A stretch of 12,085 bases of DNA. Origin: a virus. The stretch is taken from IMG/VR virus record IMGVR_UViG_3300035670_002505, positions 1 through 12,085 of that record. One strand, written 5' to 3'. The notes beneath the pieces are model-generated. The model saw only the letters and a list, made by a program, of their open reading frames with translations, was not told the origin of the DNA and did not search any database. The position numbers and the translations under genes are program-made. Position 1 is the first letter of the stretch, and each line of letters starts with the position of its first letter. Of the stretch, positions 1 to 12,085 are shown one piece after another.

Positions 1-127
1 CGCACACGCACGCACGCACGCACGCACGCACACGCACGCACGCACACGCACGCACGCACGGGCACGGCGAGGGCCCAGAAGGGCCCGAGCCAGATGAGCG
101 ACTCTTAAGGGGGGAGGTAGGTGGGGG
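1..127. repeat. Left copy of an exact 127-bp direct terminal repeat (identical to 11959..12085). Closes the sequence into an 11,958-bp unit.
   Basis: Hand alignment of 1..127 against 11959..12085 found no mismatch. This includes the irregular CGCA/CA repeat (1..60) and the unique part ggcacggcgagggcccagaagggcccgagccagatgagcgactcttaaggggggaggtaggtggggg (61..127). Confidence 0.95.
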
Positions 128-131
128 GTGG
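109..131 (+). repeat. G-rich tract GGGGGGAGGTAGGTGGGGGGTGG (possible G-quadruplex or protein-binding tract).
   Basis: Two G6 runs and three GG runs within 23 nt, non-coding. It contains a GTAGGT core at 117..122. Confidence 0.5.
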
Positions 132-243
132 AGCCGAGCCGCGAAAAATTATATTTTTCCTAGGCTCTCCCTAAAACTCCGTAACCCTCCCGTTACTTTA
201 AGTCTTCTTTACTTAAATTCTTTTCGTAACTATCTAGTTTATA

Positions 244-257
244 GAAAAGTTTATATA
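244..257 (+). promoter_or_regulatory. Archaeal-type BRE/TATA promoter P1 (GAAAAG-TTTATATA) for the RHH-terminase operon.
   Basis: Same GAAAnn + T/A-rich octamer as at 2167, 6411, 7751 and 9652. Here 40 nt, including a (TA)8 tract, separate the TATA from ATG 298, versus 21 nt at the other four. Confidence 0.55.
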
Positions 258-268
258 TATATATATAT
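252..268. repeat. (TA)8 dinucleotide repeat inside an almost pure A/T stretch (250..297).
   Basis: tatatatatatatatat read directly. It lies between the P1 TATA and the first start codon. Confidence 0.9.
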
Positions 269-297
269 CATATATATTATAGATATTATATATAAAG

Positions 298-537
298 ATG
301 AAAATACAAAAATTATTGACGCTAGATCAAGAGATAGCAGAGGAACTAAGAAAAGAGGAGAATGCTTCTTTATTAGTTAATAACCTATTGAAAGAATATT
401 TTGAAAAGAAAGTTTATCAATTTATGAGCACTGAAGAATTAAAGAAACAAGTTAGAATTCTAGATATTAAAGCTAAATATGAAGCGGCAGCAGAAGCAGA
501 AATTAAATTACTAGAGGTTACAAATGGAGCAAAGTGA
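298..537 (+). CDS. Ribbon-helix-helix (CopG/Arc-like) DNA-binding protein with a coiled-coil tail. Candidate transcription regulator and/or small-terminase-like pac-recognition subunit.
   Basis: ATG 298, TGA stop. KLLTLD-QEIAEELRKEE-NAS-LLVNNLLKEYF fits a strand-helix-turn-helix RHH pattern, followed by a charged helical tail. It is the first gene after the non-coding island and lies upstream of terL. Confidence 0.6.
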   Translation: MKIQKLLTLDQEIAEELRKEENASLLVNNLLKEYFEKKVYQFMSTEELKKQVRILDIKAKYEAAAEAEIKLLEVTNGAK

Positions 538-742
538 AGAAAGAAGGCGTTTAATAGAGATGATTAGCCAAAGAGAGCATAAAGAAAAGAAGATAGACGA
601 GTTTGAGAAGGCTAGAATAGAAGCTATTAAGAAACACCCGCTTTATGAAGAAGCGGTTAAGTTTTGGGCGAGCCCAGAAGGCAAGAAGTCTATTAAGAAC
701 GCGCTCTTATCTAAGAATGAAAACGCCGACAGAAATCTCTGA
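524..742 (+). CDS. Hypothetical protein, 72 aa, highly charged and helical.
   Basis: ORF track. GAGGT lies ~6 nt upstream of the ATG. It overlaps the previous stop by 14 nt. No family recognised. Confidence 0.5.
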   Translation: MEQSEERRRLIEMISQREHKEKKIDEFEKARIEAIKKHPLYEEAVKFWASPEGKKSIKNALLSKNENADRNL

Positions 743-917
743 AATTTACGAAAAGGAGTTTCAAGACTTAATAGCTTTATATCCTCTGGAGCAGAGAGAA
801 AACTTAGTTAAATTTCATAATGCTTTAAATGAGATAGAGCATAAATTGGCGGAAGAATTAACAAAATGGAACAAGAAAAACAAAAATTCGATATTAATAA
901 ACCCTGGCTTACTTTAG
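717..917 (+). CDS. Hypothetical protein, ~66 aa (reading frame open from 645).
   Basis: Internal ATG at 717 (MKTPTEISEIYEKEF...). The 645 start would bury 98 nt inside the previous ORF. It overlaps the terL start by 52 nt. Start choice is uncertain. Confidence 0.4.
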   Translation: MKTPTEISEIYEKEFQDLIALYPLEQRENLVKFHNALNEIEHKLAEELTKWNKKNKNSILINPGLL

Positions 918-2164
918 ACGGGTGGCAACTCGAATATATTAGGGCTAAAGGTAACTGCTTCTTATTGTGTGGCCGTCAAGTAGGCAAATCAACAGCGGCA
1001 AGTATTAAGGCCGTAGAGTTAGCCGTTCATAAACACACTAAGGGAGAGGATATACTTATTATCGCTTATACAGAAAAGCAAGCCTATAACCTATTCTTTA
1101 AGGCTTTTAACTATGCTTCTATAAGATACCCGCATTTAATTAGTAAAAAAGCCAAAGAAAAGCCAACTAAGCACGAATTCGTTTTAAATGGCGTCAAAAT
1201 AATGTGTTACGCGGCTGGCCTAATGGGAGAAGGATTAAGAGGCCTAACTTTAAAGAAGATCATAATAGACGAGCCGAGATCTATGAATGATGAAGTCTTT
1301 ACCGCAGTCTTTCCTATGGTTAGCGTAACTGGCGGAAGTATTGATCTTCTCGGAACGCCTGGAGCTAAAGAGGGTTTTTTCTATATGTGCTCTTTAAGAG
1401 ACGATTTTCAAAAATTTTACGTTTCCGCGGAAGACTGCCCAAGGCACTCTAAGGAATTCCTAGAAGGCCAGAAAACCATTTTAACAGAGTTAAGATACGC
1501 GCAAGAATATCTAGCTATGTTTTTAGATGATATGAGAAGATTTTTTCCAGATGAGTGGATTAAAAAAGTATGTGTATTAAAGAGGCCGAATAGTTTTAAC
1601 AAAATAGGAAAGACATATCTAGGAGTAGATGTTGCTGGTTTAGGAGAAGATGAAATAACCTTCGAAGTTATACATAAATTGAATAAAGATCGTTTTGAGC
1701 AAGTAGAAAATATTATAGATAGAAAAAAATTAACAACTCAAACAACAGAAAAAATTTTACAATTACACGACGGATATAAATTCGATATGATCGGCGTAGA
1801 TGATGGCGGAGTAGGCTTCGGAGTATTCTCGGAATTACTAAGGGAGCCGAGAACTAGGGATAAGGTTAAAGCTCTTAATAATGCAAAAAGATTTTTATCT
1901 TCTGATAAAAAAGAAAAGAAGAAACTAATGAAAGAAGAAATGTATTATAGACTTTTATTGATGGGAGAACAAGGAAAAATAAAACTTCTAGACGATAGCA
2001 ATATAAAAAAATCTTTACAAAGCGTTTTAACCGAGGTAGTTATCCGAGAAGGGCGAGATAGTATTGAAAGGATTTACGGAGATGATACGCATATAGTAGA
2101 GGGTTTAATAAGAGCTAATTGGGTTTGCACGGAAGACGAGGGTTTAAGCTTATGGTGGCGATAA
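866..2164 (+). CDS. terL: Terminase large subunit (ATPase plus RNaseH-like nuclease).
   Basis: Walker A G-R-Q-V-G-K-S-T is encoded at 971..994. Walker B-like LKKIIIDE is present. Nuclease-domain acidic motifs are YLGVDVAGLGEDE, MIGVDDGGVG and GDDTHIVEG. Length is 432 aa. Confidence 0.93.
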   Translation: MEQEKQKFDINKPWLTLDGWQLEYIRAKGNCFLLCGRQVGKSTAASIKAVELAVHKHTKGEDILIIAYTEKQAYNLFFKAFNYASIRYPHLISKKAKEKPTKHEFVLNGVKIMCYAAGLMGEGLRGLTLKKIIIDEPRSMNDEVFTAVFPMVSVTGGSIDLLGTPGAKEGFFYMCSLRDDFQKFYVSAEDCPRHSKEFLEGQKTILTELRYAQEYLAMFLDDMRRFFPDEWIKKVCVLKRPNSFNKIGKTYLGVDVAGLGEDEITFEVIHKLNKDRFEQVENIIDRKKLTTQTTEKILQLHDGYKFDMIGVDDGGVGFGVFSELLREPRTRDKVKALNNAKRFLSSDKKEKKKLMKEEMYYRLLLMGEQGKIKLLDDSNIKKSLQSVLTEVVIREGRDSIERIYGDDTHIVEGLIRANWVCTEDEGLSLWWR

Positions 2165-2166
2165 AC

Positions 2167-2180
2167 GAAAGAATTAAATA
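2167..2180 (+). promoter_or_regulatory. Archaeal-type BRE/TATA promoter P2 (GAAAGA-ATTAAATA) for the portal/assembly operon.
   Basis: Starts 3 nt after the terL stop. The TATA ends exactly 21 nt before ATGG at 2202, the same spacing as at 6411, 7751 and 9652. Confidence 0.65.
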
Positions 2181-2201
2181 TAGGGATATACTTTAAAAAG
2201 G

Positions 2202-2333
2202 ATGGTAGATCTAAAAAAGATTAAGATAAAAGAAGAGGAGTTTGATGTTGAAGTAAGAGATTATATTTTTATTGAAACTATAAGAGAGTTAAGTAAATCT
2301 ATTGAGGCTCTGAGGTTAGCCAGCTTAAGATGA
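2202..2333 (+). CDS. Small hypothetical protein, 43 aa (not in the ORF track).
   Basis: MVDLKKIKIKEEEFDVEVRDYIFIETIRELSKSIEALRLASLR. The ATG sits at the conserved 21-nt distance from a BRE/TATA element. The stop overlaps the next start as ATGA. It fills an otherwise empty 165-nt gap. Confidence 0.5.
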   Translation: MVDLKKIKIKEEEFDVEVRDYIFIETIRELSKSIEALRLASLR

Positions 2334-2689
2334 GTTTTACTTTATGCACTAGCGCGGCAATAATTCAAAAAGCTGGTTATAATGTTTCCTCGACGACAGC
2401 AACAAGCGGAACTTTATTAGCTTCTTTTTGTGATCAAGCTGAAGCAACGTTATCTATGAAAACTAGATACGACTGGGTTACTAATTATGCTAGCGTTAAT
2501 GCAAATTTAAAACCTATGTTAGCCGACGCTACAAGCGATCTAGCTGCTATGAAGGTTATATCTTATGATCTAGGAAGATATACGGGCTTAGGTTATGCGA
2601 ACACTATGTTAAACGTATTGAAAAATAACTTCGATCAAATCGTAGTAGATTTAAGAGAAAAAACGTTTCAAGAGAAGGTGGTTTCATAA
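2330..2689 (+). CDS. Virion-associated hypothetical protein, 119 aa. Possibly a head-tail adaptor, by position only.
   Basis: ORF track. ATGA-coupled to the upstream ORF and TAATG-coupled to the downstream one. It lies between terL and the portal. Function is not established. Confidence 0.6.
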   Translation: MSFTLCTSAAIIQKAGYNVSSTTATSGTLLASFCDQAEATLSMKTRYDWVTNYASVNANLKPMLADATSDLAAMKVISYDLGRYTGLGYANTMLNVLKNNFDQIVVDLREKTFQEKVVS

Positions 2690-3336
2690 TGGCGCAGTTA
2701 CCTACATTTTTTAATGAAAGCGGACAAGTAGCTCTAGCTAATTATGATTTTACTGATATAGCTGAAGGAACTGGAAATAGAGTTTTTTATTGTTTTACTT
2801 CTAAGCCTGGCGGAACTTTAACTTATCACTTAGGGCAAAATGCGATCGAAGTCGGCGGAGTTTCTGGAGATACTACTGACGGAGCAACTGAAAGAAGATT
2901 TTTATTTTCTAGCAATACGGCAACTTTTAGTTTATCTGCTTTTAATACTCCTCAAATAATACAAGGAACAGCTTATCTTAACTTTACTATTGTAACTTTA
3001 GGCGGTTATGGTGGAACTGCTACTATAACAGCTTCTATTTTAAAGAACTCGACAACTTTAGCAACTACAACAGCAACAGCGCCGACTTCTGCAACTGCGG
3101 TAAGAACTTATAATTTATCTTTAACAATTACTCAAACAGATTTTGCCGTCGGAGATGTTTTAAAAGTAGCGTTTGCCGTTAATGAGAGCGGACACGTTTG
3201 CCTAGAGCACGATCCAACTAATAGAAGCGCGGGATCTTCTTGGCTTATAGGTGGTAAAACACACCCAGCCGTAGATGCAACAGAAAACCCAACTAAATGT
3301 TTAGCTTATATACCCTTTAAGCTTAATCTTAACTAA
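2689..3336 (+). CDS. Thr/Ser/Ala-rich beta-type structural protein, 215 aa, function unknown.
   Basis: AGGTGG lies ~8 nt upstream. TAATG junctions on both sides. Composition (TTLATTTATAPTSATAV, alternating hydrophobic pattern) suggests a beta-sandwich virion protein. Confidence 0.6.
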   Translation: MAQLPTFFNESGQVALANYDFTDIAEGTGNRVFYCFTSKPGGTLTYHLGQNAIEVGGVSGDTTDGATERRFLFSSNTATFSLSAFNTPQIIQGTAYLNFTIVTLGGYGGTATITASILKNSTTLATTTATAPTSATAVRTYNLSLTITQTDFAVGDVLKVAFAVNESGHVCLEHDPTNRSAGSSWLIGGKTHPAVDATENPTKCLAYIPFKLNLN

Positions 3337-4439
3337 TGGCTATCTTAGATCACACACAAGGAAGCGTAACAGATTACGAGAATAATCTAACAGCCACGTC
3401 TATAAATCCTCAAAATACGGACGGAATAACAGCGGGAAAGGAAACTATTTACTCTAATTCACTCTGGGCTCAACACTGGGGATATTTTAATTCTTGCCCA
3501 GAGTTAAAATCTGCGATACTTATGAAAGCTATTTGGAACGTTGGTAAAGGTTATACAACTGATCCAGAAACTCAAATTATTCTAGATCATATTTCTGGCT
3601 GGGGAAAAGATACCTTCGAGGATATTCTTTTCAATATGGACGTTATTAGAAAAGTGGGTAGGGATAGTATAGCTCAAATTATAAGAGATAAAGAAACTGG
3701 AACTTTAATAAATCTTAAACCTTTAGATCCAGCGAGTATAAGATGGGTTGTAGATGAAAAAGGCATTATTATCCGATACGAGCAATTCGCTAAAACTGGC
3801 GATACTACGGAAGTTAAGAGAACTTTTAAGCCAGATGAAATATTCCACTTATCAAATAATAGGTTGGCTGATCAAATACACGGGATTAGTGTTATCGAGA
3901 GCCTAGATAGCACGCTTCTAGCAGAACTAGAGAGTTTTACGGATACAACTAAGCTTATGCATAGACAAGCTAAGCCTTTTATAGTTTTTAAGCTTAAAAC
4001 GGACGATCCAGTTAAAATAAGCGCTTTTCAAACTAAAATTCAAAATATAAGAGATAAAACTGAAGATTTAATCATCCCGGACGACGAGAATATATTATCT
4101 TATGAAGTAGTAAGCGTTCCAGTTTCATCCGTTATCCTAGACTGGAGAAACGACGTAACAAAGAGATTTTATAGGGCTCTAGGAATGCCTTTAGTTATCT
4201 TCGGAAGCGCTAACTCAACAGAGAGCGGCGGCAAGATGGAGTATTTTGCACACGAACAAGTATTCGAGCACGAGCAGAGATACCTAGAGAAACAGATTTA
4301 TAATCAATTAGGCTTAAGGATTAACTTATATCCGCCTACTTCTATGGCTCCTCAATTAGCTCAAGACACGGCTAAAGATGGCGGAGCTCAACAATTAAAC
4401 ACCCAGCCTAGCGACGCTATAGCTGGACGAGGTAAGTAA
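3336..4439 (+). CDS. Portal protein.
   Basis: 367 aa. The layout resembles the HK97-type Phage_portal family: CPELKSAILMKAIWNVGKGY, then GRDSIAQIIRDKETGTLINLKPLDPASI, then FHLSNNRLADQIHGISVIESL, then QAKPFIVFKL, then FYRALGMPLVIFG. It is in the same operon as the assembly genes. By-eye match only. Confidence 0.75.
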   Translation: MAILDHTQGSVTDYENNLTATSINPQNTDGITAGKETIYSNSLWAQHWGYFNSCPELKSAILMKAIWNVGKGYTTDPETQIILDHISGWGKDTFEDILFNMDVIRKVGRDSIAQIIRDKETGTLINLKPLDPASIRWVVDEKGIIIRYEQFAKTGDTTEVKRTFKPDEIFHLSNNRLADQIHGISVIESLDSTLLAELESFTDTTKLMHRQAKPFIVFKLKTDDPVKISAFQTKIQNIRDKTEDLIIPDDENILSYEVVSVPVSSVILDWRNDVTKRFYRALGMPLVIFGSANSTESGGKMEYFAHEQVFEHEQRYLEKQIYNQLGLRINLYPPTSMAPQLAQDTAKDGGAQQLNTQPSDAIAGRGK

Positions 4440-5782: not shown

Positions 5783-5783
5783 A

Positions 5784-6424: not shown

Positions 6425-6445
6425 GTAGCTATATCTATATTTCTT

Positions 6446-6856: not shown

Positions 6857-6857
6857 A

Positions 6858-7751: not shown

Positions 7752-7764
7752 AAACATATTTATA
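7751..7764 (+). promoter_or_regulatory. Archaeal-type BRE/TATA promoter P4 (GAAACA-TATTTATA) for the tail-fibre operon.
   Basis: Overlaps the last base of the capsid gene stop codon. The TATA ends exactly 21 nt before ATGG at 7786. Confidence 0.65.
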
Positions 7765-7785
7765 GTTGTTATTTCTTAATTTATT

Positions 7786-9171
7786 ATGGGTGGCTGGAGC
7801 AACGATAATCGTGATACAATAGAATGGGATGGATCTATAAAAGTTAAAAATAAATTTATTGGTGACGGATCACAATTAACAAATTTACCCATAGACTTCG
7901 GAGCTGCTTATGAAATACCGACGACAAACACGACTTCTGACAATTTTATTTATTCTTCAAAATTTACACACGACGGAGACGGCGGTATAAGTATAGGCGG
8001 ATTAAGTTTAAACAACAGCGAAGCATTAAAAATATATAAATTACAAACAGCATTAAGCGGTAATAGTTATGGTATTAACGTAGCGCCAACAGCACAACCA
8101 GCAAGCAACAGCACGGGTATTTTTACGGGAGCTAGAACTTCTATAACTGCCGAGGGATCTTCAACTATTACAAGATTAACGGGCGGATATTTCCAAGTTT
8201 ATAATAATAATAGTGCTACAAGTGGGAACGGATTAGCACAAGCCTTTGGCGGGCATTTTATAATCACTAACGCCTCAACGGGCAAGATTAATTCTATGGT
8301 ATGCGGAAGATTTGGGGTAGAAAATTTATCCACGGGATTAGTTAATAATACTTATGGTTGTGGTATTTTTAGGCCGGTAGGAACGGCGGGCGGAACTTAT
8401 GTCAATATGTATGGCTTATACATGGAAGATCAAACTCCCACGGCGGGTAGTATGAGTAATACGCCTTATGCTATATATCAAGCGGGAACAACTAATAAAA
8501 ACTATTTTGGCGGGTTAATTGGTATTGGAACAACAAATCCAAGCGAAGTTTTAGATGTTATAGGAGATATAGAAGTAAGTGCGGATATACATAACCTCGC
8601 AGATAACGGGAAACATTACTTCGGAGCTTCTGACGACGCTTCTATTTATTACGACGGAACTGATTTAATTTTAAATGGAAAGGAAGTAGGAACGGGCGGA
8701 GTAAGGCCAATAAGTAGGTTAATCGTTCCTATGGGTGAGATATCCTATTTTGACACTACGGGAACTACTATAAGTATTGCTTCAACTTCGGACGGATCAA
8801 CAAATATGGTTGTTGTTAATCCAACAACAGCATTAAGCACAAGTTACGAGTTTGACAACGGCGGATCAAACAACGGACGTTTAAGATATACGGGAACTAC
8901 TACTAAAATGTTTCATATTGCTTGCACGATTAGCATAGCAAGCACGGCAGCTAACGATTTATTTGTTTTTGGGGTTGCTAAAAATGGTAGTGTTGTGGCG
9001 GCGAGTAAAGTTTTAATGAAAGTTATAGGCGCAGCAGATACGCAAAGCACGGCTTTACACCTTATGGTAGAGATGGCTACTAATGATTACTTAGAATTGT
9101 ATGTTGGAAACACAACGGATACTGATGATTTGGTAGTCAAGACTTTAAATTTATTTGCAATGGGTATGTAA
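7786..9171 (+). CDS. Tail fibre / receptor-binding protein with a C-terminal C1q/TNF-like jelly-roll domain.
   Basis: The N-terminal FIGDGSQLTNLP and the central GLIGIGTTNPSEVLDVIGDI and ASIYYDGTDLIL motifs are typical of phage tail fibres. The last ~130 aa (GRLRYTGTTTKMFHIACTISIAS...VAKNGSVVAAS...NDYLELYVGN...LNLFAMG) fits the C1q/TNF-like pattern. Confidence 0.8.
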   Translation: MGGWSNDNRDTIEWDGSIKVKNKFIGDGSQLTNLPIDFGAAYEIPTTNTTSDNFIYSSKFTHDGDGGISIGGLSLNNSEALKIYKLQTALSGNSYGINVAPTAQPASNSTGIFTGARTSITAEGSSTITRLTGGYFQVYNNNSATSGNGLAQAFGGHFIITNASTGKINSMVCGRFGVENLSTGLVNNTYGCGIFRPVGTAGGTYVNMYGLYMEDQTPTAGSMSNTPYAIYQAGTTNKNYFGGLIGIGTTNPSEVLDVIGDIEVSADIHNLADNGKHYFGASDDASIYYDGTDLILNGKEVGTGGVRPISRLIVPMGEISYFDTTGTTISIASTSDGSTNMVVVNPTTALSTSYEFDNGGSNNGRLRYTGTTTKMFHIACTISIASTAANDLFVFGVAKNGSVVAASKVLMKVIGAADTQSTALHLMVEMATNDYLELYVGNTTDTDDLVVKTLNLFAMGM

Positions 9172-9181
9172 GGGGGTTAAT

Positions 9182-9397
9182 ATGGTAGATATAACGATAA
9201 AAAACGTTCCAGAAGGCGCAGAACAAGCCGTTAAGAATATGGCTATGGTTGCTATTGATAGATTTTTACAGCAACCGCTTCAACCGCCTAAAGAACTTTT
9301 CGATAACTACAAAGCAACTTTAGATAATTGTCTAGAAGCTAACGGATTACCTAAAAAATTTGATGTAGTGATCGAGGAGAAGATAAATGTCGATTAG
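9182..9397 (+). CDS. Hypothetical protein, 71 aa. The N-terminus is weakly RHH/FitA-like.
   Basis: AGGGGGT lies 5 nt upstream of ATG 9182, preferred over the track start at 9155, which lies inside the fibre gene. VDITIKNVPEGAEQAVKNMA resembles a strand-helix opening, but the second helix is too short for a confident RHH call. Confidence 0.55.
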   Translation: MVDITIKNVPEGAEQAVKNMAMVAIDRFLQQPLQPPKELFDNYKATLDNCLEANGLPKKFDVVIEEKINVD

Positions 9398-9575
9398 ACT
9401 TTTGAGGCAGAGTAAGAGCGAACTAGAACAAACGATAGTTAAAACAGCCAAGTTTATGCGCCAACATTACGACTATCAAAGTTTATACGAACTCTTACGC
9501 GAGGAACATTTTAAAGCTCAAATGATCTATAAACAAAGAACTGGAGATTTTTACAGATGGGAGCGCTTGAAATAA
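9387..9575 (+). CDS. Hypothetical protein, 62 aa, helical and basic.
   Basis: GAGGAG lies 7 nt upstream. Overlaps the upstream gene by 11 nt. Confidence 0.55.
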   Translation: MSIRLLRQSKSELEQTIVKTAKFMRQHYDYQSLYELLREEHFKAQMIYKQRTGDFYRWERLK

Positions 9576-9611
9576 TCTGGTATGTTTTACTAATATCCGT
9601 CGCTGTTATTC

Positions 9612-9634
9612 TTTTATTTTTGTTATCTTTTTTT
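9612..9634 (+). terminator. Oligo-T terminator-like tract (T4, T5 and T7 runs) at the end of the tail-fibre operon.
   Basis: cttttatttttgttatcttttttt lies directly before promoter P5. Oligo-T tracts are the usual archaeal termination signal. A 29-aa hydrophobic ORF (9557..9646) is an alternative reading. Confidence 0.45.
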
Positions 9635-9651
9635 AGTTACATATAAAAACC

Positions 9652-9665
9652 GAAAGATTTAAATA
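9652..9665 (+). promoter_or_regulatory. Archaeal-type BRE/TATA promoter P5 (GAAAGA-TTTAAATA) for the small-ORF module.
   Basis: The TATA ends exactly 21 nt before ATGG at 9687. Confidence 0.7.
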
Positions 9666-9686
9666 CTTACTTACTTAGTGTTTATT

Positions 9687-9866
9687 ATGGAAACAGAATT
9701 TAAAACTCCTCAACTGGAGACAACAACGGAAAGCTTAAAGTTAATTAAGAATACTAAAGGCTACAACTGGGAAATAAAACTCTTATCTTTAGATATTGAG
9801 AAATTAACAGAATTAAATAATGAGATGATCGCGCGCTTCGGATCTGGGAGTTTAACAGATGAATGA
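9687..9866 (+). CDS. Hypothetical protein, 59 aa.
   Basis: ATG 9687 (METEFKTPQ...) is chosen over the GTG at 9678 because of the conserved promoter-to-ATG spacing. Confidence 0.6.
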   Translation: METEFKTPQLETTTESLKLIKNTKGYNWEIKLLSLDIEKLTELNNEMIARFGSGSLTDE

Positions 9867-9925
9867 GGACGATATGAATAGAGATCTAGGAGCCGAGATA
9901 GATGAGATTTATGAGAGGTTAAGAG

Positions 9926-10087
9926 ATGAAAACATTAAATATTAGTTACGAAGATAAGGCCTTCCAGAAAATCCAGAAGATTAAAGTTAGATACATGAAG
10001 TTTCATAAATTAAAAAAAATTGCCTGGGATAGAATAATTTATGTTGCTCTATCTAGGCTCGAGGAAGATGGAAAAAACGTTAAATAG
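9926..10087 (+). CDS. Small hypothetical protein, 53 aa, possibly RHH-like (not in the ORF track).
   Basis: MKTLNISYEDKAFQKIQKIKVRYMKFHKLKKIAWDRIIYVALSRLEEDGKNVK. GAGAGG lies 7 nt upstream. It has a strand-helix-helix-like pattern and fills the 9867..10067 gap. Confidence 0.4.
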   Translation: MKTLNISYEDKAFQKIQKIKVRYMKFHKLKKIAWDRIIYVALSRLEEDGKNVK

Positions 10088-10319
10088 TGTCCAGAAAGAA
10101 GTAGCGCAAGAAGCTATACAAACTAAGCACGGGTTAATAGAGATGTATCAAGCTGGCTTTTTAGATGGCTATAAATTCCACGCTAAGAGCCACGCTACTG
10201 ATAAGGGGATCTGGGGCAAGATAGCTAAAGACTCTAAGAGATATTTTGAGAAAAGATTTTTTAAGAAAATCAATAAGAGGTTAAACTATAAAACTGGAAG
10301 ATGGAAAGCAAAAAAGTAA
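10068..10319 (+). CDS. Hypothetical protein, 83 aa, basic C-terminus.
   Basis: Frame open from 10041. The ATG at 10068 (MEKTLNSVQ...) is preferred because it reduces the overlap with 9926..10087. Start is uncertain. Confidence 0.5.
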   Translation: MEKTLNSVQKEVAQEAIQTKHGLIEMYQAGFLDGYKFHAKSHATDKGIWGKIAKDSKRYFEKRFFKKINKRLNYKTGRWKAKK

Positions 10320-10495
10320 AACAACTTAAGCCTAAGAACTGCAAGACTGCGATTAAATGCATTCAGAAGGGAATAGACTTCAACTTACAAGTTTCTCCTA
10401 ATAGATTTATAATGTTCGTTGGTGGGATATTGTCTAAAATTGAAGATGGGCAACAATTCGTTTATATACGTGAAAGAGGGTGGGTTGGGATATGA
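10301..10495 (+). CDS. Hypothetical protein, 64 aa.
   Basis: ORF track. 19-nt overlap upstream and an ATGA junction downstream. Confidence 0.5.
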   Translation: MESKKVKQLKPKNCKTAIKCIQKGIDFNLQVSPNRFIMFVGGILSKIEDGQQFVYIRERGWVGI

Positions 10496-10674
10496 AAATA
10501 ATATTTACTTGTAAAAATGGGCATAGTTATGAAAGTAAAAATCCAATAACTACCGAAGGGGCATCTAGATTTGGTTGGAAGCAAAACGATACTTGCAAGG
10601 TTTGTGGAGAAGTTATCATTAAAGAAGATTGCTACGTAAACGGAAAAATAGTTATGGGGGCTATAAGAATATGA
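10492..10674 (+). CDS. Zinc-ribbon-like small protein, 60 aa.
   Basis: GGGTGGGTTGGG lies just upstream of ATG 10492. CKNGH...CKVCG gives a C-x3-H / C-x2-C metal-binding pair. ATGA junctions on both sides. Confidence 0.55.
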   Translation: MKIIFTCKNGHSYESKNPITTEGASRFGWKQNDTCKVCGEVIIKEDCYVNGKIVMGAIRI

Positions 10675-11063
10675 GTGAATTAATAATTGAGGAAGAAGAA
10701 AAAGCTAAAGACTTTCAAACTATAAATTTCAAAGGTAAAGAGTTTAGAATTTATAAATGGGAAAATAAACCTATTAAAGATTTTGTTTATCCAAAAGGAT
10801 TTAGAATGGCTGAATTTCAAGAGTTAGTAGATTTGATAGATAATAAGAAATTTGAAGCAGAAGTTTGGAAATCGTATTATACTAAACATTGGAGTAAATT
10901 ACAACAAAATAAAGAATATTGTTTGTCTAGGGCTTATCTCAACTATGCCGGCGGTTGGGATTCCTATTACGAGCTTTTGGCGGATTCCAATGGCTATGGT
11001 CGGGTAGTAGTCGTGAGGGATTTAAAATCTAAATTTAAACGGGGGGTAAAAAATGATAACTGA
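10671..11063 (+). CDS. Hypothetical protein, 130 aa. Weak DUF1566/FISUMP-like pattern.
   Basis: TGGGGG lies ~10 nt upstream of ATG 10671. KGFRMAEFQELVDL and the C-terminal GRVVVVRD loosely resemble the GWRLPT..EL..L ... vRcVR signature. Weak. Confidence 0.55.
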   Translation: MSELIIEEEEKAKDFQTINFKGKEFRIYKWENKPIKDFVYPKGFRMAEFQELVDLIDNKKFEAEVWKSYYTKHWSKLQQNKEYCLSRAYLNYAGGWDSYYELLADSNGYGRVVVVRDLKSKFKRGVKNDN

Positions 11064-11349
11064 TTTTAGTGGCGATTTTCTTAACTATGATAGCACGAAC
11101 GACGGCGATATAGTTACTATTCTCGACGAAGGTAAGACTGAATATAACGAAACCTTAAAGAAAGAGATGTTTAACTTAAGCGTCGATCTTAACGGCAAGA
11201 AGAAGATCTATTCGCCTAACAATACAGCGGGTAGAGCATTACAAGAAGCCTTTGGGAAAGATAGTAAGAACTGGATTAACAAACAATTCACTATATTCCA
11301 CGTAGATAAGAAAATGGTTATTAAACCAATTAAAAATGATAAAATATAA
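11053..11349 (+). CDS. Hypothetical protein, 98 aa. A nucleic-acid-binding OB-like fold is speculative.
   Basis: GGGGGGT lies 6 nt upstream of the ATG. ORF track. No family recognised with confidence. Confidence 0.6.
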   Translation: MITDFSGDFLNYDSTNDGDIVTILDEGKTEYNETLKKEMFNLSVDLNGKKKIYSPNNTAGRALQEAFGKDSKNWINKQFTIFHVDKKMVIKPIKNDKI

Positions 11350-11455
11350 AGACTTATCTGGATGGCTTAAGCTAGCTATCGTAACTGGCTGGATATTAGC
11401 CTTTTATTGTATGATAGCTTTTAGTCTAGGCTTTATCTGGGCATTGTTTGCTTAA
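11336..11455 (+). CDS. Small hydrophobic membrane protein, 39 aa (not in the ORF track).
   Basis: MIKYKDLSGWLKLAIVTGWILAFYCMIAFSLGFIWALFA. Overlaps the previous gene by 14 nt. It is the last ORF before the terminators. Confidence 0.4.
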   Translation: MIKYKDLSGWLKLAIVTGWILAFYCMIAFSLGFIWALFA

Positions 11456-11477
11456 ATAGATAGATTTATTTACTTTG

Positions 11478-11485
11478 TTTTTTTT
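11478..11485 (+). terminator. T8 run, an archaeal-type oligo-T terminator after the last gene.
   Basis: tttgttttttttatg lies 23 nt after the final stop codon. Confidence 0.5.
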
Positions 11486-11509
11486 ATGAGGCTAATCACC
11501 TCTTTTTAT

Positions 11510-11552
11510 CCCACTCCGCTGGAGGAGTGGGGCTTACTCTTTCTTAATTTTT
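11510..11552 (+). terminator. Hairpin (8-bp stem CCCACTCC / GGAGTGGG, 6-nt loop) followed by T-rich sequence ending in T5.
   Basis: Stem arms 11510..11517 and 11524..11531 are exact complements. Downstream is gcttactctttcttaattttt. Confidence 0.5.
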
Positions 11553-11592
11553 CGTGTGTTTCCTCGATGTATTGAGGATTGATGTGTCTTTC

Positions 11593-11618
11593 CGCGCTCG
11601 CCCTTCTGGGCTCGCGCG
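11593..11618. repeat. GC-rich hairpin element CGCGC-TC-GCCC-TTCT-GGGC-TC-GCGCG, an inverted copy of the element at 68..90 / 12026..12048.
   Basis: The reverse complement of its core is GCGAG-CCCAGAAGGG-CGAGC. The other copy reads GCGAG-GG-CCCAGAAGGG-CC-CGAGC. Confidence 0.7.
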
Positions 11619-11725
11619 TTAGTTTTATATACTTCATTTACTTATAAAAGGCGTAGCCTTTTACAGCGTCGCACTCATTCTCAAACGTAACGGGCGGATC
11701 ACACACGGGGCGAAGGCGCGGACTG

Positions 11726-11749
11726 AGTTATTCGGATAACCGAATAACT
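11726..11749. promoter_or_regulatory. Inverted repeat AGTTATTCGG-ATAA-CCGAATAACT with core TTATTCG-N6-CGAATAA. Second copy of the candidate operator.
   Basis: The 10-nt arms are exact complements. Half-sites and spacing are identical to the palindrome at 6388..6407. Confidence 0.6.
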
Positions 11750-11762
11750 TTTCCACTGGAAA

Positions 11763-11791
11763 CGTAGGTTAGCATACCTTTATTTCCTATG
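11763..11791 (+). repeat. Iteron R1: CGTAGGTTAGCATACCTTTATTTCCTATG.
   Basis: 24 of 29 positions match R2 at 11849..11877 (86-nt periodicity). Contains AGGT...ACCT dyad symmetry. Confidence 0.7.
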
Positions 11792-11848
11792 CGTATAAAC
11801 GTGTCGAAACCCTCAAATTTGGGCGTTATAGCCAGTCTGGACAAGAAG

Positions 11849-11877
11849 CGTAGGTTAGACAACCTTCATTTCCTATG
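11849..11877 (+). repeat. Iteron R2: CGTAGGTTAGACAACCTTCATTTCCTATG.
   Basis: Direct imperfect repeat of R1. Both are preceded by CTGGA. Confidence 0.7.
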
Positions 11878-11893
11878 GAGCGCTTCGTTTGCA

Positions 11894-11907
11894 CGTAGGT
11901 AACCTTA
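11894..11907 (+). repeat. Partial iteron R3: CGTAGGTAACCTTA, inside the imperfect 21-bp palindrome GCACGTAGGTAACCTTAGTGC.
   Basis: Shares the CGTAGGT core and the AGGT/ACCT dyad with R1 and R2. Confidence 0.55.
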
Positions 11908-11946
11908 GTGCAAAGCCATAGATCGTTTCTCTTAGCCTTTACTCAC

Positions 11947-12018
11947 TACGCACGCACACGCACACGCACGCACGCACGCACGCACGCACACGCACGCACG
12001 CACACGCACGCACGCACG
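11947..12018. repeat. Imperfect (CGCA)n/(CA)n microsatellite, an uninterrupted alternating pyrimidine-purine tract of ~72 nt. A truncated copy lies at 1..60.
   Basis: Read directly: tacgcacgcacacgcacacgcacgcacg...cacg. Every position alternates Y-R from 11947 to 12018. The tract is non-coding. Confidence 0.9.
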
Positions 12019-12085
12019 GGCACGGCGAGGGCCCAGAAGGGCCCGAGCCAGATGAGCGACTCTTAAGGGGGGAGGTAGGTGGGGG
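11959..12085. repeat. Right copy of the exact 127-bp direct terminal repeat.
   Basis: Same alignment as for 1..127, at an offset of 11,958 nt. Confidence 0.95.

What the first reader, a model, noticed from the sequence alone, without database searches (positions are those of the whole stretch)
1..12085. Complete ~12-kb genome of a miniature head-tail virus with no recognisable replication, integration or lysis genes
1..127 equals 11959..12085 exactly, so the window closes into an 11,958-bp unit. It encodes a full packaging and capsid set: large terminase, portal, scaffold-like protein, DUF2190-like decoration protein, HK97-fold capsid protein and tail fibre. All genes are on one strand in five transcription units. 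I cannot recognise a DNA polymerase, primase/helicase, Rep, integrase, tail tube, tape measure or cell-wall hydrolase. Tailed viruses of this size sit at the extreme lower end of the known range. The small ones I know of (phi29-like phages, Mycoplasma phage P1) carry a protein-primed polymerase, which is absent here. Described archaeal tailed viruses are, to my knowledge, at least about twice this size. So this is either a new lineage of minimal podovirus-like viruses or a capsid-encoding, helper- or host-dependent element.
Basis: partly seen in the sequence, partly recalled or inferred. Interest (0 to 1): 0.85.

Follow-up and report, generated by a model that had tools for sequence, protein, structure and literature searches.

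The report
Miniature 12-kb archaeal-type head-tail virus genome
This window is the complete, circularly closing 11,958-bp genome of a tiny capsid-and-fibre virus with archaeal-style promoters, one member of a large, apparently undescribed clade of 10-12.5-kb viruses that almost never carry their own DNA-replication or integration genes.

Summary
Bases 1-127 equal 11959-12085, giving an 11,958-bp unit. Large terminase, portal, cement protein, HK97-fold capsid protein and a fibre are confirmed, all on one strand, behind five promoters.

The window is not a one-off. Terminase relatives at 46-61% identity number in the hundreds across JGI, ENA, Logan, NCBI and Tara data. Every contig listed in the four terminase searches (the best 80-120 hits of each) is at most 12.75 kb, except one probably chimeric 49-kb contig. 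Eighteen genomes that are closed, or complete under weaker criteria, measure 10.1-12.4 kb and share gene order.

The promoters are archaeal in type. A BRE/TATA box (RAA-N2-3-TTTAWATA) ends exactly 21 nt before the ATG of the first gene of each block, with no Shine-Dalgarno sequence, so the host is most likely an archaeon.

No polymerase, Rep or integrase was found in the window or in most accessory ORFs of 38 related genomes or long contigs. One relative has a D5-like helicase, and several have Hjc or RusA resolvases.

A conserved noncoding region of about 0.9 kb probably serves as origin, packaging site or both. It carries an ORB-like box, iterons, G-runs, an A/T palindrome and an operator. 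The ORB-like box occurs in only 3 of 18 genomes.

Tail architecture, host and replication mode remain inferred. I rate it a new variant of a known kind (Caudoviricetes).

The parts
1..127 (.). Assembly overlap, identical to 11959-12085; closes the 11,958-bp unit
   Evidence: Exact identity; the longest terminal repeat is 127 nt. Bases 1-60 are (CGCA)n microsatellite and 61-127 are unique.
108..160 (+). Two G-runs followed by the A/T palindrome GCGAAAAATTATATTTTTCC. This module is seen in 8 of the 9 relatives whose noncoding region was read, 10-150 nt upstream of the first gene; candidate unwinding element or terminase site
   Evidence: Sequence. The same module, G- or C-runs plus AAAAATTTTTT(AAAAAA), is in L005, L007, L010, L011, L012 and L014, with a weak form in L015. 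It was not seen in L001. Function is inferred.
244..276 (+). Early promoter: BRE GAAAAG plus a TATA-rich (TA)n run; the octamer CATATATA ends 21 nt before ATG 298
298..537 (+). g1, 79 aa, ribbon-helix-helix-like DNA-binding protein; candidate regulator or small-terminase substitute
   Evidence: The sequence pattern KLLTLDQEIAEELRKE..NASLLVNNLL is my own reading. There is no Pfam hit. It is BLAST-similar to an ORF in L007. The first gene after the control region is also RHH-like in L007.
524..917 (+). Two overlapping small ORFs (524-742, 72 aa; 645-917, 90 aa) upstream of TerL; it is uncertain which one is real. Several relatives have an Hjc-like resolvase at this position, but the window does not
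866..2164 (+). Large terminase: ATPase domain plus probable RNaseH-like nuclease domain
   Evidence: PF03237 1.5e-7 and phrog_2 2.8e-33. The TerL profile hits PDB 4zni, entry named 'Phage terminase large subunit' (9e-11), and T4 gp17. Walker A GRQxGK and Walker B DE are invariant. Nuclease hits in the window are sub-threshold (PF22530 0.011, PF17289 0.051), but homologues carry precomputed hits to these families.
2167..2180 (+). BRE/TATA promoter GAAAGAATTAAATA, 21 nt before ATG 2202; in relatives it lies inside the 3' end of TerL
2202..2333 (+). g5, 43-aa ORF, first gene of the morphogenesis operon
   Evidence: ORFs of similar size are called at this position in L007, L010, L012, L014 and L015
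2330..2689 (+). g6, 119 aa, all-helical core protein; head-tail adaptor or connector is my guess
   Evidence: Present in every relative in which that region was recovered, including the L001/L002 branch. No family hit. The single-sequence AF2 model has pLDDT 52, with helices only, so it is inconclusive.
2689..3336 (+). g7, 215 aa, probably beta-rich (my reading of the sequence) core structural protein of unknown role; candidate tail/nozzle or vertex protein
   Evidence: Conserved in 10 genomes with motifs HDPxNR and PFKI. No hit in PHROGs, Pfam or PDB.
3336..4439 (+). Portal protein
   Evidence: PF04860 1.9e-12, phrog_12 2.2e-21
4439..5377 (+). g9, 312 aa: apparently disordered N-terminal half, hydrophobic middle, apparently helical C-terminal part (my reading of the sequence). 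Scaffold or internal/ejection protein (inferred)
   Evidence: Syntenic in relatives except the L001/L002 branch. No significant family hit.
5377..5556 (+). g10, 59 aa with one hydrophobic segment; membrane protein, candidate holin-like factor
   Evidence: sequence; no family hit
5540..5782 (+). g11, 80 aa, possibly coiled-coil by eye; candidate scaffold
   Evidence: BLAST cluster in 5 genomes; no family hit
5784..6296 (+). g12, 170 aa, clade-specific core protein (motifs VQGxLRP, EYxFPE, HPIGIK, C-terminal QExL)
   Evidence: Alignment. An exhaustive phmmer search of 1.84 billion representatives gives 94 clusters, all stand-alone proteins of 54-199 aa. No hit in PDB, PHROGs or Pfam.
6293..6421 (+). 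g13, 42 aa, single hydrophobic segment
   Evidence: homologue in L010
6388..6424 (+). Late promoter: operator palindrome TTATTCGTTTAAACGAATAA, then BRE/TATA GAAAAGTTTAAATA ending 21 nt before ATG 6446
   Evidence: BRE/TATA lies 21-28 nt (mostly 21-23) upstream of the cement-gene ATG in all 11 genomes examined. The operator is next to it or overlaps it in W, L001, L007, L010, L014 and L015.
6446..6856 (+). Cement/decoration protein (DUF2190, Phage_cement_2)
   Evidence: PF09956 1.4e-7
6858..7751 (+). HK97-fold major capsid protein
   Evidence: PF25209 3.6e-10, phrog_1650 4.8e-14. The AF2 model has pLDDT 76.5 and pTM 0.77. Foldseek finds encapsulins, T7-like capsids and HK97 at 1e-12 to 7e-16. 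In BFVD the top hit is Bacillus phage Anath MCP at 1.4e-19, and HGTV-1 MCP ranks 4th.
7750..7764 (+). Fibre-gene promoter: GAAACA plus TATTTATA, 21 nt before ATG 7786
7786..9171 (+). Fibre / receptor-binding protein: conserved 35-aa N-terminal anchor and a variable C-terminal domain
   Evidence: phrog_24754 'tail fiber protein' 4.5e-7. The N-terminus MxGWxxxDRxxIEWDGxI..GDGSxLTxL is shared with 5 relatives whose C-termini are unrelated. Genes at this position or other accessory ORFs in relatives carry Laminin_G_3, BclA_C, K1-lyase_C, Beta_helix, Phage Tail Collar and Collagen domains.
9155..11349 (+). Variable module of about 9 small ORFs (53-144 aa) with its own promoter at 9652-9665. The true start of ORF 9678-9866 is probably ATG 9687. 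It includes an RHH-like ORF (9155-9397), a Zn-ribbon ORF (10480-10674) and a weakly SSB-like ORF (11053-11349)
   Evidence: No significant Pfam or PHROG hit. phrog_1278 SSB scores only E 0.058. Only scattered homologues exist in relatives. Promoter spacing.
11336..11455 (+). 39-aa hydrophobic ORF with a homologue in L012
   Evidence: sequence
11456..12085 (.). GC-richer (about 48-59%) noncoding control region, continuing into 1-297. Contents: inverted repeats 11600-11617 / 12025-12042; operator palindrome 11726-11749; ORB-like palindrome TTCCACTGGAAAC 11751-11763; 33-nt direct repeats 11759-11791 and 11845-11877; hairpin 11888-11914; (ACGC)n 11948-12018. Candidate replication origin and/or packaging site
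   Evidence: Folding z-scores are -3.2 and -5.0. Motifs are shared with relatives whose MCP is about 40% identical to the window's or, for L001, about 20%. ORB consensus from PMC1868953 and PMC4153887.

Best explanation
The window is the complete genome of an autonomous, very small virus of the class Caudoviricetes that most likely infects an archaeon.

Shown: it encodes a terminase, a portal, an HK97-fold capsid protein, a cement protein and a modular receptor-binding fibre. It closes into an 11,958-bp unit. It belongs to a large clade with the same gene order and a tightly constrained size of 10.1-12.4 kb.

Inferred virion: the capsid is very small, T=3 or T=4. The fibre, with three small clade-specific core proteins (g6, g7, g12), forms a short podovirus-like tail at the portal vertex.

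Inferred expression: five archaeal BRE/TATA promoters drive leaderless operons. A palindromic operator sits at the late (cement/capsid) promoter and again in the control region, which suggests a simple early/late switch run by a small dimeric DNA-binding protein such as the RHH-like g1.

Inferred replication: there is no polymerase, primase, helicase, Rep or integrase, so the DNA is copied entirely by host enzymes. Replication starts in the conserved 0.9-kb noncoding region, where an ORB-like box, iterons, G-runs and an A/T palindrome lie. TerL then cuts and packages the product. The tight genome-length limit reflects capsid capacity. Some relatives add Hjc or RusA resolvases to debranch the DNA before packaging.

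Without an integrase the element is lytic or persists as an episome.
For: Completeness and circular map:
- Exact 127-nt overlap in the window.
- Exact end overlaps (DTRs) or permuted copies in relatives: L001 (115 nt), L005 (30 nt), L007/L008 (two permutations of one 11,603-bp unit), L010 (an ORF runs across the junction), and nine IMG/VR contigs with end overlaps of 54-141 nt. L168 is a circular permutation of the L085 lineage.

Size constraint:
- All 17 MCP relatives lie on contigs of at most 12,085 bp.
- The 120 best TerL relatives lie on contigs of at most 12,567 bp.
- The 80 best IMG/VR loci and the 80 best metagenome loci are all at most 12,747 bp, apart from one 49-kb contig.

Gene identities.

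Fibres:
- A conserved N-terminal anchor with swapped C-termini.
- Tail-collar, beta-helix, collagen and depolymerase domains in relatives.

Archaeal host:
- The motif GAAANNTTTAWATA gives 5 hits against 1.2 expected by chance.
- It is conserved before the cement, fibre and post-TerL genes in 9-11 genomes.
- 30 of 43 + strand matches lie 21-23 nt before an ATG that opens an ORF of at least 40 aa, 25 of them at exactly 21 nt (some sites are counted twice, because the N2 and N3 forms of the motif overlap).
- No Shine-Dalgarno sequence is seen at operon starts, while internal genes have GAGGT/GGTG.
- Hjc-type resolvases occur in 6 relatives.
- TerL and MCP both have the haloarchaeal virus HGTV-1 among their best known matches.

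No replication or integration genes:
- Window.
- 28 selected accessory ORFs of nine relatives.
- 121 accessory ORFs of 29 further contigs of at least 9 kb (nine of them closed genomes) yield one D5_N/DUF5906 helicase and no integrase, Rep or PolB.

Control region: motifs are conserved among members whose MCP is about 40% identical to the window's or, for L001, about 20%. An ORB core with at most 1 mismatch occurs in 3 genomes, always in that region; P is about 1e-4 for 3 of 9.

Capsid size: the predicted mean genome length for a T=3 tailed-phage capsid is 11.8 kb (PMC7762592).
Against: - No adaptor, nozzle, tube or tape-measure protein was identified, so a tail is inferred only from portal plus fibre.
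- g6, g7, g9 and g12 have no detectable homologues of known function.
- The host was not identified. Three relatives sit on short contigs binned to an Actinomycetota MAG, a Woesearchaeota MAG and a Staskawiczbacteria MAG, which contradict one another.
- The ORB-like core is present in only 3 of 18 complete genomes. It is a single site in the window, where a chance hit occurred in 26 of 200 shuffles.
- No orc1/cdc6 gene lies next to it.
- The physical ends and the packaging mode are unknown.
- One relative's genome appears joined to a larger virus-like contig through a shared fibre-gene segment. That could hint at an association with a larger virus.
Confidence: 0.6

Rival explanations
1. It is a capsid-forming satellite or other helper-dependent element. 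It builds its own small heads and packages itself, but needs a co-infecting larger virus for replication functions, tail parts or lysis. This would resemble capsid-forming PICIs or P4, but without integration.
For: No replication, lysis or recognisable tail-tube, adaptor or nozzle genes. Its size is like P4 and the PICIs. One relative's 11.66-kb circle is joined, inside its fibre gene, to a larger virus-like contig through a 163-nt segment at 92.6% identity. That implies fibre-module sharing with a larger co-occurring virus.
Against: It encodes its own receptor-binding fibre, with a clade-specific N-terminal anchor, and three extra conserved structural-module proteins. Known capsid-forming satellites lack fibres and carry an integrase plus a primase or Rep (own knowledge of cf-PICIs and P4). 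No integrase was found in any scanned ORF and no copy has host flanks. No conserved gene resembles a helper-sensing or capsid-redirecting factor.
Confidence: 0.17
2. It is a bacteriophage, for example of Patescibacteria or another AT-rich uncultured bacterium, not an archaeal virus. The TATA-like boxes would then be unusual bacterial promoter elements.
For: Two of the three MAG-binned relatives are in bacterial bins, Staskawiczbacteria and Actinomycetota. The nearest MCP sequence matches are Bacillus siphophages. TerL also resembles Thermus/Meiothermus phages and pelagiphages.
Against: The binned contigs are 2.9-6.8 kb and carry no host genes, and the three bins disagree, so the binning is uninformative. 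A similar spurious binning of small elements is described in bioRxiv 10.1101/2025.08.03.668216. A purine-rich BRE plus TTTAWATA ending exactly 21 nt from an SD-less ATG is the archaeal leaderless-promoter geometry, not a sigma-70 -10/-35 layout (the geometry itself is established knowledge). Hjc-type resolvases and an ORB-like box fit archaea.
Confidence: 0.12
3. It is not a complete replicon. It would be a fragment of a larger virus or provirus, or an assembly artefact closed through the (ACGC)n microsatellite.
For: Half of the 127-nt overlap is a low-complexity repeat. One relative lies on a 49-kb contig.
Against: 67 nt of the overlap is unique sequence. The junction order is reproduced inside the contigs of relatives. 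Eighteen diverged genomes that close, or are complete under weaker criteria, measure 10.1-12.4 kb, with different permutation points. The lineage on the 49-kb contig also exists as an 11.66-kb circle in another sample.
Confidence: 0.03

Closest known systems
Archaeal tailed viruses of the class Caudoviricetes (haloarchaeal families such as that of HGTV-1; Asgard verdandiviruses of about 19-20 kb)
   Same: HK97-fold MCP, portal and TerL. HGTV-1 is the top TerL match (32% identity over 55% of the protein) and ranks 4th among structural MCP matches. The promoters are of archaeal type.
   Different: The genome is about half the size of the smallest described archaeal tailed virus. Verda V2, at 19.5 kb, is the only small one the papers I read mention (bioRxiv 10.1101/2025.06.18.659913); that described archaeal tailed viruses are otherwise larger is my own knowledge. 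There are no tube, sheath or tape-measure genes and no replication genes. No protein is close enough for family membership: at most 32% for TerL, and no portal hit at all.
phi29-like and other minimal podoviruses (Salmonella phage astrithr 11.6 kb, Mycoplasma phage P1 11.7 kb)
   Same: Genome size at the lower limit for tailed viruses (PMC7762592; PMC11476376). A short-tailed architecture is presumed.
   Different: phi29-like phages replicate linear DNA with a protein-primed PolB and package it with a pRNA-dependent ATPase. Here there is no PolB, no pRNA match in Rfam, a TerL of the T4/P74-26 type and a circular assembly map.
Capsid-forming phage-inducible chromosomal islands and satellite P4
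   Same: Elements of 11-15 kb. cf-PICIs make or use small HK97 capsids and encode their own TerL, portal and MCP.
   Different: Those elements are integrated, carry an integrase and a primase or Rep, and have no fibre (own knowledge). This clade has no integrase, no host-flanked copy, usually no replication protein, and its own fibre gene.
Small DTR contigs with HK97 proteins from metagenomes ('twilight' mini viral genomes, bioRxiv 10.1101/2025.06.18.659913; predicted T=3 candidates, PMC7762592)
   Same: Metagenomic, terminally overlapping contigs near or below the 11.6-kb limit of isolates. The MCP has family-1 encapsulins as its best PDB structural matches.
   Different: The group described there is about 8.9 kb, from human gut, temperate, with RepA or helicase and integrase, and lacks terminase, portal and tail genes. 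This clade has terminase, portal and fibre and lacks integrase and Rep.
Gene transfer agents
   Same: A head-and-packaging gene set without replication genes.
   Different: GTAs are chromosomal loci that package random host DNA (own knowledge). Here the gene set is itself a recurrent unit of fixed size that closes on itself.

Membership tests
Caudoviricetes (realm Duplodnaviria) | HK97-fold major capsid protein | tested here: met
   PF25209 41 bits against a cut-off of 27. AF2 model pLDDT 76.5; Foldseek probability 1.00 to encapsulins, HK97 and T7-like capsids.
Caudoviricetes (realm Duplodnaviria) | Portal protein | tested here: met
   PF04860 47.5 bits against a cut-off of 39.1; phrog_12 2.2e-21.
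Caudoviricetes (realm Duplodnaviria) | Large terminase with an ATPase domain and an RNaseH-like nuclease domain | tested here: inconclusive
   The ATPase domain is clearly present (PF03237 above cut-off; PDB 4zni 9e-11). The nuclease domain is only sub-threshold in the window (PF22530 0.011, PF17289 0.051), although homologues carry precomputed hits to both families.
Caudoviricetes (realm Duplodnaviria) | A tail attached to the portal vertex | tested here: inconclusive
   The fibre has a PHROG tail-fibre match, and relatives carry the Phage Tail Collar domain at 2e-19. No adaptor, nozzle, tube or tape-measure protein was recognised.
phi29-like phages (protein-primed small podoviruses) | [quoted passage not shown] | tested here: not met
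   No polymerase hit in any ORF of the window or in the 149 accessory ORFs scanned from relatives.
phi29-like phages (protein-primed small podoviruses) | Packaging RNA (pRNA) | tested here: not met
   The Rfam scan at E <= 1 finds only a chance snoRNA-like hit.
Capsid-forming PICIs / phage satellites | Integrase and residence in a host chromosome | tested here: not met
   No integrase. No relative was found on a host-sized contig in GTDB genomes, IMG/VR or metagenomes.
Capsid-forming PICIs / phage satellites | Own replication initiator (primase or Rep) plus dependence on helper tails (no fibre or tail genes) | tested here: not met
   No Rep or primase in the window. A fibre gene is present in the window and in every relative whose fibre position was examined.
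Archaeal viruses (host domain) | BRE/TATA promoters about 26 nt upstream of the transcription start, with leaderless first genes | tested here: met
   RAA-N2-3-TTTAWATA ends 21 nt before the ATG. 25 of 43 matches are at exactly 21 nt (some sites counted twice through overlapping N2 and N3 forms), and the motif is conserved at three operon starts in 9-11 genomes. Transcription starts were not measured.
Archaeal viruses (host domain) | Direct host link (CRISPR spacer, provirus in an archaeal genome, co-culture) | not testable with these tools
   Only pattern scans were possible. One 4.8-kb relative is binned in a Woesearchaeota MAG, but two others are in bacterial bins.
Archaeal Orc1/Cdc6-dependent origin (oriC-type) | Several ORB or mini-ORB repeats flanking an A/T-rich unwinding element | tested here: inconclusive
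   The window has one 12/13 match to the ORB core TTCCAGTGGAAAC, plus degenerate repeats. L007 has three boxes with at most 2 mismatches within 165 bp, and L001 has one. The core is absent from 15 of 18 complete genomes. Consensus from PMC1868953 and PMC4153887.
Archaeal Orc1/Cdc6-dependent origin (oriC-type) | Adjacent orc1/cdc6 gene | tested here: not met
   No AAA+ initiator gene in the window or in the ORFs of relatives that were scanned.
Encapsulins | HK97-fold shell gene in an operon with cargo; no portal or terminase | tested here: not met
   Encapsulins are the best PDB fold matches, but portal, TerL and fibre are present.

The most novel reading that the evidence does not exclude
This clade would be a new family-level or higher lineage of the smallest self-sufficient tailed viruses of archaea, possibly of DPANN archaea such as Woesearchaeales. 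Its members would build the isometric T=3 HK97 capsids that theory predicts for genomes of about 11.8 kb but that have not been seen in an isolate. They would carry no replication protein at all because their control region mimics the host origin (ORB-like boxes, G-strings, A/T element) and recruits host Orc1/Cdc6-MCM directly.
Probability: 0.2. Interest if true: 0.85.

Novelty: new variant of a known kind. Interest (0 to 1): 0.68.

Why it matters
If the reading is right, four things follow.

1. It roughly halves the lower size limit known for archaeal head-tail viruses. It also defines, with hundreds of members, how few genes a Caudoviricetes virion needs: TerL, portal, MCP, cement, a fibre and about five small proteins.

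2. It supplies natural candidates for the "missing" T=3 tailed-virus capsids (PMC7762592).

3. It shows a tailed-virus lineage that has handed genome replication entirely to its host. That makes the conserved 0.9-kb control region a compact test bed for archaeal origin recognition and for terminase site choice.

4. The clade is abundant across groundwater, sediment, lake and marine data sets, yet its host is unknown. It may be a major unrecognised predator of an uncultured archaeal group.

Tried and rejected
- **Near-identical DNA in GenBank phages:** none.
- **MCP peptide scan of IMG/VR:** nothing. MCP-profile scans failed for lack of conserved blocks, and the MCP scan of GTDB genomes found nothing.
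- **Concatenated g6+g7+g12 query in the large protein search:** Deep alignments for structure prediction of the unknown core proteins were therefore not available.
- **Single-sequence AF2 of g6:** pLDDT 52, unusable for fold search.
- **Profiles of g7 and g12 against PDB sequences and PHROGs:** only noise.
- **Fibre against PDB sequences:** noise.
- **Hjc profile against six-frame ORFs:** the window has no Hjc-like gene. I therefore dropped the idea that ORF 645-917 is a resolvase.
- **Family-wide ORB origin:** weakened, because only 3 of 18 genomes have the core.
- **Structured ncRNA in the control region:** strong folding z-scores but no Rfam match. Many of the hairpins are DNA palindromes shared as sequence motifs, so a DNA-level role seems more likely. 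Not resolved.
- **Salinibacter plasmid pSR11 (11.2 kb) as a bacterial analogue:** rejected. It has only a TerL-like ATPase, together with a P4 primase and ParA.
- **The 49-kb contig as a larger relative or a concatemer:** rejected as a clean concatemer. The same lineage exists as an 11.66-kb circle.
- **MAG bin taxonomy as host evidence:** rejected as inconsistent.
- **First simulation for ORB statistics:** timed out and was replaced by an analytic estimate.

Full report
**1. The observation**

The first 127 bases are identical to the last 127, and no longer exact terminal repeat exists. The window therefore closes into an 11,958-bp unit with 36.9% G+C. About 60 nt of the overlap is an (ACGC)n microsatellite, but the remaining 67 nt is unique sequence. 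A length of 127 is a standard assembler k-mer, so I read the repeat as the overlap left by a circular assembly path, not as a physical terminal repeat (inference).

The junction itself is real. Going through it, the order is: a hairpin GCAC(G/T)TAGGTAACCTTAGTGC, two G-runs, an A/T palindrome, then the first RHH-like gene. The same order is found inside the contigs of relatives L012, L014, L007 and L010.

All plausible genes lie on the + strand. Pfam and PHROGs confirm five of them:
- large terminase, 866-2164
- portal, 3336-4439
- DUF2190 cement protein, 6446-6856
- major capsid protein, 6858-7751
- a fibre, 7786-9171, whose C-terminal domain matches a PHROG 'tail fiber protein'

An AlphaFold model of the capsid protein, built on 17 homologues, has pLDDT 76.5. 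It is an HK97 fold by Foldseek. The best solved matches are family-1 encapsulins, then T7-like capsids and HK97. The best predicted viral matches are Bacillus phage Anath, with the haloarchaeal virus HGTV-1 in 4th place.

No ORF gives a polymerase, primase, helicase, Rep, integrase, tail-tube, tape-measure or cell-wall hydrolase hit. Pfam covered every + strand ORF of at least 42 aa and PHROGs covered 20 of the 25. There is no tRNA and no Rfam family.

**2. It is one of many**

No GenBank phage or archaeal-virus record is close:
- no DNA match
- TerL at most 32% identical (HGTV-1, Meiothermus/Thermus phages, pelagiphages)
- MCP about 22% identical to Bacillus siphophages
- portal with no hit

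Metagenomes tell a different story.
- The capsid protein has 16 relatives at 40-74% identity, with longest contigs of 11.7-12.1 kb.
- The terminase has 1,671 homologues at E <= 1e-10. The best 120, at 50-61% identity, never lie on a contig longer than 12,567 bp. They come from JGI, ENA, Logan, NCBI and Tara.
- A TerL-profile scan found 276 relatives in IMG/VR and at least 376 in JGI/GenBank metagenome contigs. The best 80 of each are at most 12,747 bp, apart from one 49-kb contig.

Fetched genomes share the gene order: small ORFs, TerL, g6, g7, portal, g9, g11, g12, cement, MCP, fibre, variable small ORFs.

Closure is shown independently many times:
- exact end overlaps of 30-141 nt in L001, L005 and nine IMG/VR contigs
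- two different permutations of one 11,603-bp genome, L007 and L008
- an ORF running across the ends of L010
- a permuted copy, L168, of the L085 lineage

Eighteen genomes treated as complete span 10,115-12,426 bp. Fourteen of them are closed by one of these criteria; L011, L012, L014 and L015 are taken at contig length. The clade-specific protein g12 alone forms 94 clusters at 50% identity among 1.84 billion representatives, all short stand-alone proteins. The window is therefore a complete genome of a large, size-constrained clade, not a fragment.

**3. Host domain**

A purine-rich BRE followed by TTTAWATA occurs 5 times on the + strand against 1.2 expected by chance. It sits before the first gene of each block.

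The same element is conserved before the cement gene in all 11 genomes examined, in TATA-like form before the fibre gene in 9 of 10, and in 9 of 10 before the gene after TerL. In most relatives it lies inside the TerL coding sequence.

Over 11 genomes, 30 of 43 + strand matches end 21-23 nt before an ATG that opens an ORF of at least 40 aa, and 25 of those are at exactly 21 nt (some sites are counted twice, because the N2 and N3 forms of the motif overlap). This puts the TATA box at -29 to -22 relative to the start codon, with no Shine-Dalgarno sequence in between. Internal genes do carry GAGGT/GGTG.

This is the geometry of archaeal leaderless transcripts, not of sigma-70 promoters (established knowledge). 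Supporting hints are the Hjc-type Holliday-junction resolvases in six relatives (Pfam above threshold in two) and the recurrence of HGTV-1 among the best TerL and MCP matches.

Direct host evidence is missing. Three relatives in GTDB genomes sit on contigs of 2.9-6.8 kb. They are binned to an Actinomycetota MAG, a Woesearchaeota MAG and a Staskawiczbacteria MAG, which contradict one another and carry no host genes. I put about 0.8 on an archaeal host. Within that, a DPANN lineage is a weak guess.

**4. Virion**

The fibre genes share a 35-residue N-terminus, MxGWxxxDRxxIEWDGxI..GDGSxLTxL, followed by unrelated C-termini. In relatives, genes at the fibre position and other accessory ORFs carry Laminin_G_3, BclA_C, K1-lyase_C, beta-helix/pectinesterase, collagen, Phage Tail Collar and depolymerase domains. 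This is the signature of exchangeable receptor-binding proteins anchored to a conserved virion site, so the particles recognise cells on their own.

The anchor site cannot be named. g6 (119 aa, helical), g7 (215 aa, probably beta-rich by my reading) and g12 (170 aa) are conserved but have no detectable relatives of known function. g9 (312 aa) has a hydrophobic middle part, by my reading of the sequence. It may be a scaffold or an ejection protein, and the 80-aa g11, possibly coiled-coil by eye, may be the scaffold (inference).

With no tube or tape-measure gene, a short podovirus-like tail is the economical reading. The genome length matches the 11.8 kb predicted for a T=3 tailed-virus capsid (95% interval 8.1-17.1 kb; T=4 13.2-24.5 kb; PMC7762592). 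The narrow size range across the clade fits a capsid-capacity limit.

**5. Replication, integration, lysis**

Beyond the window, I scanned 28 selected accessory ORFs of nine relatives and 121 accessory ORFs of at least 94 aa from 29 further contigs of at least 9 kb, nine of them closed genomes. Apart from the fibre domains, the yield was:
- nucleases: SNase, HNH, RusA, Hjc
- two DNA methyltransferases
- a pentapeptide-repeat protein
- a CcdA-like antitoxin
- exactly one replication protein: a 503-aa D5_N/DUF5906 helicase in the 10.1-kb genome L099

No integrase, Rep or polymerase appeared. Replication genes are therefore detectable when present, and they are optional in this clade. The window has none. 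Its only hint is a very weak SSB-like match for ORF 11053-11349 (E 0.058).

That some duplodnaviruses lack almost all replication genes and rely on the host is accepted (abstract of PMC11348598). What is unusual here is the combination with a 12-kb genome and the absence even of an initiator.

The missing lysis genes carry little weight, since lysis modules of archaeal tailed viruses are largely unknown (own knowledge). Three tiny hydrophobic ORFs (5377-5556, 6293-6421, 11336-11455) are candidates.

**6. The control region**

Between the last gene and the first lie about 0.9 kb (11456-12085 plus 1-297). This stretch is GC-richer (up to 59%), rich in hairpins (z = -3.2 and -5.0) and built of motifs shared with relatives whose capsid proteins are only about 40% identical, or about 20% in the case of L001.

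- An operator palindrome TTATTCGG-N4-CCGAATAA lies at 11726-11749. It recurs at the late promoter (6388-6407) in the window. In relatives it lies next to or over that promoter. This suggests a dimeric regulator that couples the control region to capsid-gene expression.
- Directly next to it is TTCCACTGGAAAC (11751-11763). On the other strand this is a 12/13 match to the archaeal origin-recognition-box core (consensus GTTCCAGTGGAAAC-AAA----GGGGG in PMC1868953; CTTCCAGTGGAAACGAAAGGGGT in PMC4153887).
- It is followed by two 33-nt direct repeats, at 11759 and 11845, containing CGTAGGTTAG...ATTTCCTATG.
- L007 has three boxes with at most 2 mismatches to the core in 165 bp, and L001 has one.
- Under a composition model, three of nine genomes with a site of at most 1 mismatch has P of about 1e-4.
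- The test is post hoc, a single hit in the window is not significant by itself (26 of 200 shuffles), and none of nine further complete genomes has the core.
- Most of the clade members whose control region I read share a different module: two G- or C-runs followed by AAAAATTTTTT(AAAAAA), 10-150 nt upstream of the first gene (window 108-160).

My best reading is that this region is the origin used by host replication proteins and probably also the terminase recognition site. The specific idea that it mimics a host ORB gets about 0.3.

**7. A loose end**

One relative lies on a 49,360-bp contig. The same lineage is an 11.66-kb circle in another sample (L168). In the long contig the circle is opened inside its 713-aa fibre-like gene, at a 163-nt segment that is 92.6% identical to the other end. 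It then continues into unrelated virus-like genes, including a 1,529-aa ORF. This is either a chimeric assembly or a recombination through a fibre segment shared with a larger co-occurring virus. It is the only observation that hints at a partner virus.

**8. Comparison and verdict**

The element meets the capsid and portal criteria of Caudoviricetes, and its terminase has a clear ATPase domain; the terminase nuclease domain and the tail remain inconclusive. It fails the defining features of phi29-like phages (no protein-primed polymerase, no pRNA), of capsid-forming PICIs and P4 (no integrase, no Rep or primase, own fibre, never integrated), of GTAs and of encapsulins.

It also differs from the small 'twilight' HK97 entities described in 2025, which lack portal, terminase and tail genes and carry an integrase and RepA (bioRxiv 10.1101/2025.06.18.659913). 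I found no paper in the held library that describes this clade. That is not proof that none exists, and IMG/VR already lists hundreds of members as unclassified contigs.

I file it as a new variant of a known kind: a miniature, host-replicated, probably archaeal podovirus-like lineage. Confidence in that explanation is 0.6. A helper-dependent capsid-forming element gets 0.17, a bacterial host 0.12 and an incomplete or artefactual genome 0.03.

Noticed in passing
window 6388-6407 and 11726-11749; L007 4635 and 10280; L010 2491 and 9418; L015 4247 and 10254; L005 11575; L014 8066; L035 2886: A conserved palindromic operator, TTATTCGG-N4-CCGAATAA, occurs both next to or over the BRE/TATA of the cement/capsid operon and in the large noncoding region. 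It is found in about 12 of 18 complete genomes. It is probably the binding site of a dimeric regulator that controls late genes.
   Followed up: partly
L085 (IMGVR_UViG_3300023257_000002 = Ga0222658_1000118, 49,360 bp), L111, L112, L084, L168: An 11.66-kb member of the clade, circular in sample Ga0307928, appears in another sample joined to unrelated virus-like genes (1,529-aa ORF, secreted 197-aa protein). The join lies inside its fibre gene, at a 163-nt segment with 92.6% identity. It is either a chimeric assembly or recombination with a larger co-occurring virus that shares a fibre module.
   Followed up: partly
L099 8257-9768 (IMGVR_UViG_3300011118_000803, 10,115-bp unit): This is the only clade member seen with a replication protein, a 503-aa D5_N + DUF5906 helicase. 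tblastn with the window's and L001's cement and MCP finds nothing in this genome. A 421-aa ORF follows its portal.
   Followed up: partly
L005 766-1035, L007 9110-9481 (-), L010 3319-3612, L011 906-1199, L015 3023-3313 (-), L016 527-850 (-): Short (about 90-aa) Hjc-like PD-(D/E)xK resolvases with the motif RSAGSHSPIDV...Q.K occur in six relatives, often directly upstream of TerL. One further relative has RusA instead. The window has neither.
   Followed up: yes
window 11948-12018 (= 1-60) and 252-294: An (ACGC)n microsatellite of about 18 units sits at the assembly junction, and a (TA)n run of about 22 units forms the early promoter. L001 has (GTA)n/(GATA)n and (GT)n runs and L014 and L015 have comparable simple repeats (TG- or CA-rich, GTT/GTA-rich) in the equivalent region. 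Copy number in the assembly may be collapsed.
   Followed up: no
window 11600-11617 and 12025-12042: An 18-nt inverted repeat (89% complementary, each arm itself a GGGCCC...GGGCCC-type hairpin) brackets the 407-bp stretch that holds the operator, the ORB-like box, the iterons and the microsatellite.
   Followed up: no
window 6858-7751 (model m4047564825f0): The best solved-structure matches of the capsid protein are family-1 encapsulin shells (9fy6, 7mh2, 9i8e, 6nj8; E 7e-16 to 5e-14), slightly ahead of phage capsids. Pfam Linocin_M18 is only a faint hit (0.082). This fits the compact, insertion-free HK97 fold of small viruses.
   Followed up: partly
window 9678-9866: The mechanical ORF starts at GTG 9678, but promoter spacing (TATA ends at 9665, plus 21 nt) and the JGI gene call (59 aa) point to ATG 9687 as the real start.
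   Followed up: yes
NC_014026.1 (L030), Salinibacter ruber plasmid pSR11, 11,229 bp: This small bacterial plasmid carries a TerL-like ATPase (28% identity to the window's TerL N-terminal half) next to a P4-family primase and ParA. It is unrelated to the clade, but it is an odd terminase-bearing plasmid.
   Followed up: partly
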